In this document: positions 1,231-1,604 of the stretch, in pieces
Layout of the letters: each line of letters opens with the position of its first letter
Position numbering within the stretch: position 1 is the stretch's first letter
From: a virus
Lineage: Duplodnaviria > Heunggongvirae > Uroviricota > Caudoviricetes
Length of the DNA stretch: 15,712 nt
Direction: 5' to 3' (one strand)
Virus record (IMG/VR): IMGVR_UViG_2700989173_000009
The notes under the pieces: generated by a model
The model's input: the letters and a program-made list of their open reading frames with translations, nothing else
Told to the model about the DNA's origin: nothing
The model's database searches: none
Program-made: the position numbers and the translations under genes

Positions 1231-1247
1231 TTTTTTTCGTGTTTTTT

Positions 1248-1263
1248 CAGTATGCGCATACTG
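1248..1263. promoter_or_regulatory. Perfect 16-bp palindrome CAGTATGCGCATACTG immediately 3' of int
   Basis: Read directly: cagtatgc|gcatactg is its own reverse complement; it is preceded by two T-runs (1231-1237, 1242-1247) and sits 18 bp after the int stop codon. Candidate dimeric protein-binding site; function unknown. Confidence 0.4.
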
Positions 1264-1270
1264 GATATGC

Positions 1271-1325
1271 GAACAGATACAACGTGCAACAATGAGCAAC
1301 AATGCGGAACAACTACGAACAAGAG
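1271..1325 (-). repeat. Array of 10-bp phased GAACAA/CAACAA repeats (TTGTTC/TTGTTG on the minus strand), 4 exact-phase units plus 1-2 degenerate units
   Basis: AACAA cores at 1288, 1298, 1308 and 1318 (exactly 10 bp apart), with degenerate copies at 1272 and 1279. Helical-repeat phasing suggests cooperative protein binding. Same motif family as 6619-6644 and 14119-14134. Confidence 0.55.
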
Positions 1326-1416
1326 GTGAAAAAGTGTACAGATTTATAAGTAGCTGATTTTTAATGTGTTACTGATTTTTTATACACTAGCGAATCACTC
1401 TTTAAATAGCGAGAAA

Positions 1417-1445
1417 AAAGGCATGAAACAATATTTTATGCCTTT
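1417..1445. terminator. Hairpin AAAGGCAT-N13-ATGCCTTT flanked by an A-run (5') and TTTGT (3'); possible bidirectional or minus-oriented terminator
   Basis: 8-bp perfect stem (1417-1424 / 1438-1445) with a 13-nt loop. On the minus strand the stem is followed by a run of 6 U; on the plus strand only by UUUGU. Weak call. Confidence 0.3.
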
Positions 1446-1604
1446 GTATTAACATGAATTTAAAGGATTTTATCCTGATTATTCCTCTTTCTGTAAACCA
1501 TACGGCCTCAACATTTGCCAACTCTGAATCATCCTGACACAATCAGACACATCCCAACGCAATAGAACACGAAATAACTCTTTAAGAAACGAAAGGGGGC
1601 AATA

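What the first reader, a model, noticed from the sequence alone, without database searches (positions are those of the whole stretch)
1231..1604. int-alpA intergenic region combines T-runs, a perfect 16-bp palindrome and the phased repeat array
Within 100 bp after the int stop there are two T-runs, CAGTATGCGCATACTG (1248-1263) and the 10-bp phased GAACAA array (1271-1325), then a long AT-rich leader with a hairpin (1417-1445) before alpA. This is more structure than a simple terminator-promoter spacer needs and resembles an att or arm-site region or a complex control region for alpA, the presumed induction switch.
Basis: seen in the sequence. Interest (0 to 1): 0.45.

Follow-up and report, generated by a model that had tools for sequence, protein, structure and literature searches.

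The report
Phased regulator-binding repeats beside alpA
The repeats after the integrase gene of this E. coli phage satellite are one of four copies of the same helically spaced binding-site array, most likely for the satellite's small AlpA regulator/excision factor, a known type of control element not yet described for these islands.

Summary
The window is a capsid-forming PICI (EcCIEDL933/EcCICFT073 family). They differ in how well they hold up.

- **Repeat array (1270-1325):** real and conserved. Five to seven G-N-A-ACAA units lie exactly 10 bp apart, and the bases between the cores vary freely.
- **Same units elsewhere:** they recur upstream of int, in the attR arm (14109-14132) and before the capsid operon (6598-6642).
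- **Integrase sites:** a different doubled 12-mer (GGTGTAGTTAAT) occurs only in the att arms and changes together with the integrase N-terminus. It is the integrase arm site; the ACAA/TTGT arrays belong to another protein.
- **Likely binder:** AlpA models as an excisionase-type winged helix, so it is the best candidate. Known parallels are 186 Apl, P4 Vis and RdfS.
- **Palindrome:** specific to one clade and not maintained.
- **Hairpin:** a conserved terminator-like stem, usable in both directions, lying upstream of a conserved candidate alpA promoter (1515-1543).
- **IHF site:** a conserved consensus site (1347-1359) sits next to the array.
- **att:** the spacer is not att; the core is about 1.45 kb away.

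Binding and its regulatory effect are inferred, not shown.

The parts
1..1230 (+). int, a P4-type tyrosine integrase with an N-terminal arm-DNA-binding domain
   Evidence: Pfam Arm-DNA-bind_3, Phage_int_M and Phage_integrase
1231..1247 (+). Two T-runs (T7 and T6, starts 11 bp apart) directly after the int stop; nearly invariant; role unknown, possibly a phased T-tract bend next to the array
   Evidence: no significant hairpin precedes them (z = -1.0)
1248..1263 (.). Perfect 16-bp palindrome CAGTATGCGCATACTG; specific to one clade and not maintained
   Evidence: absent or broken in 19 of 51 distinct spacers, and replaced by additional ACAAC units in the EcCICFT073 clade
1270..1325 (+). Array b: five in-phase 10-bp units (S-N-A-ACAA-NNN; ACAA at 1279, 1289, 1299, 1309, 1319) plus one out-of-phase GAACAG. 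Proposed operator for AlpA, a recombination-directionality-factor (RDF) type protein. It is inverted relative to arrays a, c and d
   Evidence: core invariant and spacers variable across 51 spacers; whole-unit copy-number change in L034 (+10 bp)
1347..1359 (-). IHF core consensus AATCAGCTACTTA (WATCARNNNNTTR)
   Evidence: Present at the homologous place in 50 of 51 distinct spacers, with the NNNN positions varying; only 4 matches in the whole window, one of them between the Int arm doublet and the att core
1360..1412 (.). Conserved AT-rich block (ACTGnTTTTTTATACAYTRGCGAATCAC) followed by an imperfect palindrome TCACTCTTTAAA/TTTAAATAGCGA; function unknown
1411..1452 (.). Terminator-like hairpin usable in both directions: A6, then a 12-bp stem with 5-nt loop (1417-1445), then TTTGTATT
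   Evidence: -12.9 kcal/mol, z = -3.8. A stem forms on the + strand in every variant folded, with an A-T to G.T to G-C path. The minus-strand copy is followed by T6 in every variant; the plus-strand U-tract is lost in one clade. The consensus terminator scan did not call it
1515..1543 (+). Candidate alpA promoter TTGCCA, 17 bp, (TGa)CACAAT
   Evidence: TTGCCA and an ACAA exactly 24 bp after its start are present in 51 of 51 spacers despite unrelated spacer sequences
1536..1553 (+). Two array-like units 10 bp apart (GACACAAT, GACACATC) overlapping the -10 element and the predicted transcription start; a weak candidate proximal site
   Evidence: below the position-weight-matrix cluster threshold
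1577..1604 (+). Invariant 5' untranslated segment ACTCTTTAAGAAA and the Shine-Dalgarno GGGGG (1595-1599) before the GTG start
1605..1793 (+). alpA, a 62-aa winged helix of excisionase (RDF) type
   Evidence: Pfam Phage_AlpA. AlphaFold2 model pLDDT 87; best PDB matches are the GIsul2 excisionase 8c3t (TM 0.83), the RdfS excisionase, Pukovnik Xis and TorI
6578..6595 (+). Intrinsic terminator ending the replication module
6598..6642 (+). Array c: five TTGT units at 10-11 bp. The last unit overlaps a candidate -35 (TTGTTC, 16 bp, TATTTT) before the capsid operon
   Evidence: conserved in L079 with a changed spacer; absent from EcCICFT073, which lacks the packaging module
14109..14132 (+). Array d: three TTGT units in the attR arm
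14152..14175 (+). Doubled 12-mer GGTGTAGTTAAT/GGTGTAGTCAAT, the proposed Int arm-type sites
   Evidence: Found only at the att arms. Its last 4 nt change with the Int N-terminal variant at both arms. An analogous doubled motif is reported for HE-PICI attP (PMC10111431)
14217..14229 (+). IHF consensus between the arm doublet and the core
14244..14253 (.). att core repeat GGACATATTT at the phoQ stop codon
   Evidence: Repeated upstream of int in L003 (716-725)

Best explanation
Shown by sequence comparison:
- The 1270-1325 array is a set of direct repeats spaced one DNA helical turn apart.
- The island carries this array four times: (a) 55-90 bp upstream of int; (b) here; (c) before the capsid/packaging operon; (d) in the attR arm.
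- A separate doubled 12-mer in the two att arms tracks the integrase arm-binding domain.

Inferred:
- The arrays are bound head-to-tail by the island's 62-aa winged-helix protein AlpA. AlpA would act both as recombination directionality factor (RDF) at arrays a and d and as transcription regulator at b and c. This is how 186 Apl, P2 Cox, P4 Vis and RdfS work.
- In the int-alpA spacer, the AlpA filament on array b and a bend at the adjacent IHF site (1347-1359) would form an upstream nucleoprotein complex.
- That complex would feed back on the weak, conserved alpA promoter (1515-1543). This would be the cis element behind the AlpA auto-activation measured for the homologous EcCICFT073 spacer.
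- The conserved hairpin (1417-1445) would stop int read-through into alpA, and stop antisense transcripts running into int, so that alpA fires only from its own regulated promoter.

The palindrome has no conserved role.
For: Periodicity and conservation:
- Exact 10-bp phasing is far beyond chance.
- The ACAA core is invariant while the flanking positions carry 0.2-1.1 bits across 246 units from 51 spacers. Copy number changes by whole units.

Same unit elsewhere in the island:
- TTGTTNCACGTTGT matches exactly in arrays b, c and d (6 matches at 2 mismatches or fewer, against 0.63 expected).
- Array a is seen in L001, L002, L003 and L088.

Not the integrase:
- GGTGTAGTTAAT x2 occurs only at the att arms.
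- It switches to GGTGTAGTCACT at both arms in islands whose Int N-terminus differs by 16-22 residues, while AlpA (100% identical) and the TTGT arrays are unchanged.
- EcCICFT073 has a 97% identical Int but a different array b sequence type.

AlpA as candidate:
- AlpA is the island's protein of excisionase fold.
- Published: AlpA activates its own promoter region and is required for induction and transfer, and its over-expression triggers excision and replication, in EcCICFT073 and EcCIEDL933 (PMC6092414; 10.1101/2022.09.08.507074).
- RDFs bind tandem repeats one turn apart, at att and at distant promoters (PMC7498355; PMC11963761).

Surrounding elements:
- IHF consensus conserved in 50 of 51 spacers.
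- Promoter spacing conserved in 51 of 51.
- Hairpin conserved with compensatory change.
Against: - No binding data exist. AlpA is assigned by elimination and analogy.
- Array b is centred about 250 bp upstream of the predicted alpA start and is inverted relative to a, c and d. Direct promoter contact is therefore impossible without looping.
- A terminator lies between the array and the promoter.
- RDFs usually repress the promoters they overlap, whereas AlpA activates.
- In EcCICFT073 a Pint fusion, if it included the region with array a (the fragment boundaries were not checked), did not respond to AlpA (PMC6092414).
- PICIs with 53-70% identical AlpA have an ORF in place of this spacer and no array b. 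Array b is therefore not essential to the family.
- A host protein that binds tandem 10-bp repeats is not excluded.
Confidence: 0.55

Rival explanations
1. The array is the target of a helper-phage protein, for example the helper's own excisionase or Cox-type RDF. That protein would switch on alpA in the way P2 Cox binds repeats upstream of the P4 PLL promoter to derepress P4. AlpA might share the same sites.
For: alpA transcription in the homologous EcCICFT073 spacer is turned on by helper phages lambda and phi80 through an unidentified factor, independently of SOS (PMC6092414). Excisionase cross-talk between a PICI and its helper is documented (PMC11773190). The array is of RDF type.
Against: Scoring the lambda attP P arm with the unit matrix gives only a weak match at X1 (ATGTTGTGTT, 5.4 bits) and none at X2. 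No helper sequence was available to test. The same arrays sit in the island's own att arms, which argues for an island-encoded partner.
Confidence: 0.12
2. The units are extra arm-type binding sites for the integrase N-terminal domain, used for autoregulation or for a higher-order intasome.
For: P4-type integrases have an arm-binding domain. Arrays a and d lie in the att arms. Arm sites can occur as adjacent direct repeats (lambda P'1-P'3; general knowledge).
Against: The doubled 12-mer, not the TTGT array, changes with the Int N-terminus at both arms. Arrays b and c lie about 1.45 kb and more than 6 kb from the core. Five or six contiguous units at 10 bp are typical of RDFs (PMC7498355).
Confidence: 0.1
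3. The array is a host-factor or structural element: sites for a nucleoid or response-regulator protein that binds tandem 10-bp repeats, or simply intrinsically curved DNA that, with IHF, shapes the region.
For: Strict helical phasing, flanking phased T-tracts and an adjacent IHF consensus. An AT-rich spacer.
Against: ACAA is not an A-tract. The units share sequence beyond the core (TTGTTCC-ACGTTGT) at four functionally meaningful places in the island. Single-unit matches elsewhere are near chance (47 against 31), so no genome-wide host motif is evident.
Confidence: 0.1
4. The array acts as RNA in the int 3' untranslated region (stability, or a protein-binding CAA/ACA-rich element). Alternatively it is a neutral slippage-prone minisatellite.
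For: If int transcripts run to the hairpin at 1417-1452, the array is transcribed (inference). Copy number varies.
Against: The same units occur in both orientations and in positions not obviously transcribed. The period equals the DNA helical repeat. The core is invariant while spacers drift, which is the opposite of neutral decay. There is no Rfam match.
Confidence: 0.05

Closest known systems
Apl of coliphage 186 (also P2 Cox): an RDF that doubles as transcription regulator
   Same: A small helix-turn-helix RDF. Five to seven 6-bp operators as direct repeats at 10-11 bp, present both at attP and at a promoter region far from att (PMC7498355). Here there are 3-6 units at 10 bp in both att arms and at two internal sites.
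   Different: Apl sites lie between face-to-face pR and pL and repress both. Array b lies about 190 bp upstream of the nearest conserved promoter, and AlpA is reported as an activator. Apl is an outlier by sequence among RDFs (PMC7498355) and no relationship to AlpA was tested. Binding has not been tested here.
RdfS of ICEMlSymR7A
   Same: A winged-helix excisionase that binds attP and its own promoter region and oligomerises on DNA (PMC11963761). It is the second-best structural match to the AlpA model.
   Different: RdfS sites show no consensus motif and depend on an extra N-terminal helix. Here the units have an invariant 4-bp core.
P4 Vis and the P2 Cox to P4 PLL switch
   Same: The satellite's first early-operon gene encodes an AlpA-family RDF that also regulates transcription. 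A helper RDF activates the satellite promoter through repeats upstream of it (general knowledge; PMC6092414 notes that Vis is a remote AlpA homologue).
   Different: PICI and P4 are organised differently. No helper protein has been linked to this array. The Vis site sequences were not compared here.
Doubled attP motif of helper-embedded PICIs (tgTGTATTGCa x2)
   Same: A doubled motif present once in each attP arm, 81 bp upstream and 132 bp downstream of the centre (PMC10111431). Here GGTGTAGTTAAT x2 lies about 85 bp upstream and about 142 bp downstream of the core.
   Different: The sequence differs. That paper left Int or AlpA open as the binder. Here the change together with the Int N-terminus points to Int, and a second element (the TTGT array) lies next to each doublet.
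Pseudomonas aeruginosa AlpA (Q-like antiterminator)
   Same: The name, and a promoter followed by a terminator in the regulated leader.
   Different: That protein has eight helices with DNA contacts at residues 128-142 and a GGGACG element between -35 and -10 (PMC9371919, PMC7969949). This AlpA is a 62-aa winged helix and the spacer has no GGGACG. It is not the same family.

Membership tests
RDF-type operator array (tandem repeats bound head-to-tail by a small winged-helix excisionase/regulator) | Three or more direct repeats spaced one helical turn (10-11 bp) apart | tested here: met
   Five units at exactly 10 bp; 5-7 in relatives
RDF-type operator array (tandem repeats bound head-to-tail by a small winged-helix excisionase/regulator) | The same repeats are present in the att arm(s) next to integrase arm sites | tested here: met
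   Arrays a and d lie about 10-20 bp from the GGTGTAGTTAAT doublets in both arms
RDF-type operator array (tandem repeats bound head-to-tail by a small winged-helix excisionase/regulator) | The element encodes a small winged-helix RDF-family protein | tested here: met
   AlpA: Pfam PF05930; fold matches to excisionases
RDF-type operator array (tandem repeats bound head-to-tail by a small winged-helix excisionase/regulator) | The protein binds the repeats cooperatively and bends the DNA | not testable with these tools
   Needs EMSA, footprinting or ChIP
RDF-type operator array (tandem repeats bound head-to-tail by a small winged-helix excisionase/regulator) | The repeat motif changes together with the RDF recognition helix | tested here: inconclusive
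   In L081 and L085 both AlpA (53-61% identity) and Int diverge, and the units shift to TTCG or GTTCA cores. The two proteins cannot be separated
Integrase arm-type sites / attP | Lies within roughly 200 bp of the crossover core | tested here: not met
   The core is at 14244-14253 and about 180 bp upstream of int. Array b is about 1.45 kb away in the circular form
Integrase arm-type sites / attP | The sequence changes together with the Int arm-binding domain | tested here: not met
   The doublet changes with it; the TTGT arrays do not
Integrase arm-type sites / attP | The spacer contains a core-like sequence | tested here: not met
   Local alignment of 1326-1604 to the reconstructed attP is no better than shuffles (108 of 200 and 40 of 200 shuffles score at least as high)
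Intrinsic terminator (hairpin 1417-1445) | A stable stem-loop, conserved by compensatory change | tested here: met
   -12.9 kcal/mol, z = -3.8; GGCAT/ATGCC to GGCGT/ATGCC to GGCGT/ACGC
Intrinsic terminator (hairpin 1417-1445) | A U-tract immediately 3' of the stem | tested here: inconclusive
   Minus strand: U6 in all variants. Plus strand: UUUGUAUU in most, lost in one clade. The consensus scan did not report it
Sigma-70 promoter of alpA | -35 and -10 hexamers with a 16-18 bp spacer, conserved in relatives | tested here: met
   TTGCCA, 17 bp, CACAAT with TG; spacing invariant in 51 of 51. The transcription start is not mapped
IHF site | Match to WATCARNNNNTTR, conserved at the consensus positions only | tested here: met
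   50 of 51 spacers with variable NNNN; 4 matches in 15.7 kb. Binding is not testable here
Q-like antiterminator system (P. aeruginosa AlpA) | A large eight-helix AlpA and a GGGACG element between -35 and -10 | tested here: not met
   A 62-aa winged helix; no GGGACG in 1231-1604; family features from PMC9371919
Replication iterons | Repeats adjacent to, and matching, the ori next to pri-rep | tested here: not met
   The ori repeats at 5507-5760 have unrelated units (CTGTCTACC, TAAGGTAGA)

The most novel reading that the evidence does not exclude
Array b is the sensor through which the helper phage is detected. A helper-encoded excisionase or Cox-type protein, made early after prophage induction, would nucleate on the same helically phased units and, with IHF, switch on alpA. 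AlpA would then take over the sites for positive feedback, excision and late-gene activation. This would identify the long-sought inducer logic of Gram-negative PICIs as a P2 Cox to P4 PLL type cross-talk.
Probability: 0.1. Interest if true: 0.75.

Novelty: new member of a known kind. Interest (0 to 1): 0.42.

Why it matters
Gram-negative PICIs and capsid-forming PICIs are induced by switching on alpA. Neither the helper signal nor the cis elements of the alpA control region have been mapped.

This analysis gives a concrete map that can be tested by mutation:
- one repeat unit defines four sites in the island: both att arms, the int-alpA spacer and the late operon;
- a separate doubled 12-mer is the likely integrase arm site;
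- the spacer also holds a conserved IHF site, a terminator and a weak promoter.

If AlpA binds these arrays, excision, auto-activation and late-gene expression of the island are coupled through one small protein. That matches P2/186/P4 logic and would narrow the search for the helper inducer to factors acting on about 300 bp.

Tried and rejected
- **att or pseudo-core in the spacer.** A by-eye resemblance of TTTTTTATACACTAG to the core region did not survive. Local alignment to the reconstructed attP is no better than shuffles.
- **Antiterminator model borrowed from P. aeruginosa AlpA.** That is a different, much larger Q-like protein.
- **Palindrome as operator or terminator.** It is not conserved, its substitutions are uncompensated, and no U-tract follows it on either strand.
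- **T-runs as the int terminator.** The preceding AU-only hairpin is not significant (z = -1.0).
- **Minus-strand promoter placed like the one at array c.** The equivalent -10 is TATGCG here and absent in the EcCICFT073 clade (read).
- **Similarity to lambda Xis sites.** Only X1 matches weakly.
- **Known RNA families.** None at the gathering threshold. At E of 1 or less, only a chance opuB hit.
- **Separating AlpA from Int with distant PICIs.** Both proteins diverge together, and those islands carry an ORF in place of the spacer.
- **CP4-57 of K-12.** No phased array of 4 or more units.
- **Scan of the reference-genome contig collection (GTDB species representatives) with AlpA.** Only 3 loci were returned.
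- **Single-unit matrix hits.** Near chance (47 against 31). Only the phased clusters are informative.
- **boxA-like CTCTTTAA in a 20-mer repeat (1393-1412 and 1573-1592).** Left unexplained.

Full report
**Context**

The window is a capsid-forming phage-inducible chromosomal island (cf-PICI). Its parts are:
- int (1-1230) and alpA (1605-1793);
- a D5-type primase-helicase (3767-5515) followed by ori repeats;
- capsid, protease, portal and large terminase genes.

The int-alpA stretch matches 787-878 of 5,426 complete E. coli genomes. These include O157:H7 strains and CFT073 (L088), so the experimentally studied EcCICFT073, and by the O157:H7 matches probably EcCIEDL933, carry this spacer family.

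The island sits between roxA and phoQ. A 10-bp repeat, GGACATATTT, lies about 180 bp upstream of int (L003 716-725) and at 14244-14253, over the phoQ stop codon. Relatives use other insertion sites (tqsA, abgR, ygaZ) with the same spacer.

**Checking the observation**

All features are present as described.
- The palindrome is exact.
- The array's true invariant is ACAA, at 1279, 1289, 1299, 1309 and 1319.
- The hairpin has a 12-bp stem, -12.9 kcal/mol, z = -3.8.

Exactly phased ACAA runs essentially never occur in shuffles: 3 runs of three or more units were observed against a mean of 0.005. A search with every tetramer for four or more copies at 10-11 bp finds only three arrays in 15.7 kb: this one, 6598-6642, and an unrelated GTGAC array at 13705-13739.

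**Comparative anatomy of the spacer**

I extracted 70 spacers (the window, four E. coli/Shigella genome loci and 65 IMG/VR viral-contig loci), which gave 51 distinct sequences, and aligned them.

- *Palindrome.* Perfect in 32 of 51. Elsewhere it carries uncompensated substitutions. In the EcCICFT073 clade it is replaced by further ACAAC units, giving six units at exactly 10 bp.
- *Array.* The ACAA core is invariant in the 246 in-phase units collected, while neighbouring positions carry 0.2-1.1 bits. One spacer (L034) has an extra exact 10-bp unit.
- *IHF consensus.* WATCARNNNNTTR occurs once, on the minus strand at the homologous place (window 1359 to 1347), in 50 of 51 spacers. The four free positions vary. 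The whole window has only four matches, and one (14217-14229) lies between the arm doublet and the att core, where an IHF site is expected.
- *Hairpin.* A stem forms on the + strand in every variant folded, following an A-T to G.T to G-C path. The G.T wobbles fit plus-strand RNA. The A6 before the stem, which is T6 after it on the minus strand, is invariant. The plus-strand U-tract is lost in one clade. I read it as a terminator usable in both directions. A weak YlcI/YnfO-like ORF on the minus strand (2297-2476) could supply the antisense transcript that it stops.
- *Promoter.* TTGCCA (1515-1520), 17 bp, then nACAAT (1538-1543) keeps its spacing in 51 of 51 spacers, although the spacer sequence exists in three unrelated versions.

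The hairpin is therefore upstream of this candidate promoter, not in the alpA leader.

**The array is one of four**

The same units, read as TTGT, occur in three further places:
- (a) four times 55-90 bp upstream of int;
- (c) five times at 6598-6642, directly after a terminator (6578-6595) and before the capsid operon;
- (d) three times at 14109-14132 in the attR arm.

The pair TTGTTnCACGTTGT is exact in b, c and d. Only b is inverted.

At c, the last unit overlaps a candidate -35 (TTGTTC, 16 bp, TATTTT). This is kept in L079 despite changes in the spacer. EcCICFT073 lacks the packaging module and also lacks array c.

**Which protein?**

A different element, GGTGTAGTTAAT in tandem, is found only at the two att arms. 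It lies about 85 bp before and about 142 bp after the core, much like the doubled motif reported for helper-embedded PICIs (PMC10111431).

In islands whose Int N-terminus differs at 16-22 of the first 100 residues, this element reads GGTGTAGTCACT at both arms. In those islands AlpA is identical and the TTGT arrays and flanks are unchanged. So the doublets are the likely integrase arm sites, and the arrays belong to another factor.

AlpA is the obvious candidate.
- It is a Pfam Phage_AlpA protein.
- Its model (pLDDT 87) matches the GIsul2 excisionase (TM 0.83), the RdfS excisionase, Pukovnik Xis and TorI best.
- Recombination directionality factors characteristically bind tandem repeats one turn apart, and several do so both at att and at promoters (PMC7498355, PMC11963761).
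- Published work on EcCICFT073 shows AlpA activating its own promoter region and being required for induction and transfer; its over-expression triggers excision and replication. Helper phages, not SOS, turn alpA on, and the inducer is unknown (PMC6092414).

**Limits**

- No binding has been shown.
- Array b is about 190 bp from the -35 element, inverted, and separated from the promoter by a terminator. Any effect on alpA needs looping, for which the IHF site is suggestive only.
- A Pint fusion did not respond to AlpA (PMC6092414).
- PICIs with 53-70% identical AlpA carry an ORF in place of this spacer. They keep only the array and doublet upstream of int. Array b is therefore a feature of the EcCICFT073/EcCIEDL933 clade.

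**Verdict**

The att reading is rejected. The control-region reading is supported in a more specific form: an RDF-type operator array belonging to an island-wide set.

This is a new member of a known kind of element. It is of moderate interest because it offers a testable cis map for the unsolved induction of Gram-negative PICIs.

Noticed in passing
window 7684-7686 (capsid gene 6859-8016): TGG to TGA nonsense codon at residue 276 relative to the intact 386-aa homologue in L079 (97% DNA identity). This copy of the cf-PICI probably cannot make its own capsid.
   Followed up: partly
window 11118-11167: A run of 50 N (masked or unresolved sequence) inside the HNH/small-terminase region.
   Followed up: no
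window 13705-13739 (+): A second kind of helically phased array: GTGAC four times at 10-11 bp (CGTGACggagaGTGACaaccaGTGACacaccGTGACaaaaa), downstream of the last island gene. The motif differs from the TTGT units.
   Followed up: no
window 14027-14042: A second perfect 16-bp palindrome, TATGGGGATCCCCATA, in the attR arm, also present in EcCICFT073. Two such palindromes in the window against 0.17 expected.
   Followed up: no
window 14152-14175 and upstream of int in L001-L003, L088: The doubled 12-mer GGTGTAGTTAAT occurs in both att arms. Its last 4 nt change with the Int N-terminal variant (TCACT type in L001/L079). It is probably the integrase arm site.
   Followed up: yes
window 6598-6642: A TTGT array directly after a terminator and overlapping a candidate -35 before the capsid operon. 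It is absent from EcCICFT073, which lacks the packaging module, and suggests the late operon is under the same regulator.
   Followed up: partly
window 1393-1412 and 1573-1592: A 20-mer repeat (16 of 20 identical) containing the boxA-like CTCTTTAA. The second copy, in the alpA 5' untranslated region, is invariant in 51 spacers. Function unknown.
   Followed up: partly
window 5507-5760: Several short tandem repeats (CTGTCTACC, ACTATCTACCC, TAAGGTAGA and others) directly after pri-rep, probably the island's replication origin.
   Followed up: no
L076 3240-3262 (spacer of E. coli E21845/O/A): Expansion of a CCCAA pentamer, (ACCCA)n, just downstream of the candidate alpA -10 element. The 5' untranslated region tolerates length variation there.
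   Followed up: no
L081, L085, L160-L168: More distant PICIs have a 228-302 aa ORF of unknown function between int and alpA in place of the 374-bp spacer.
   Followed up: partly
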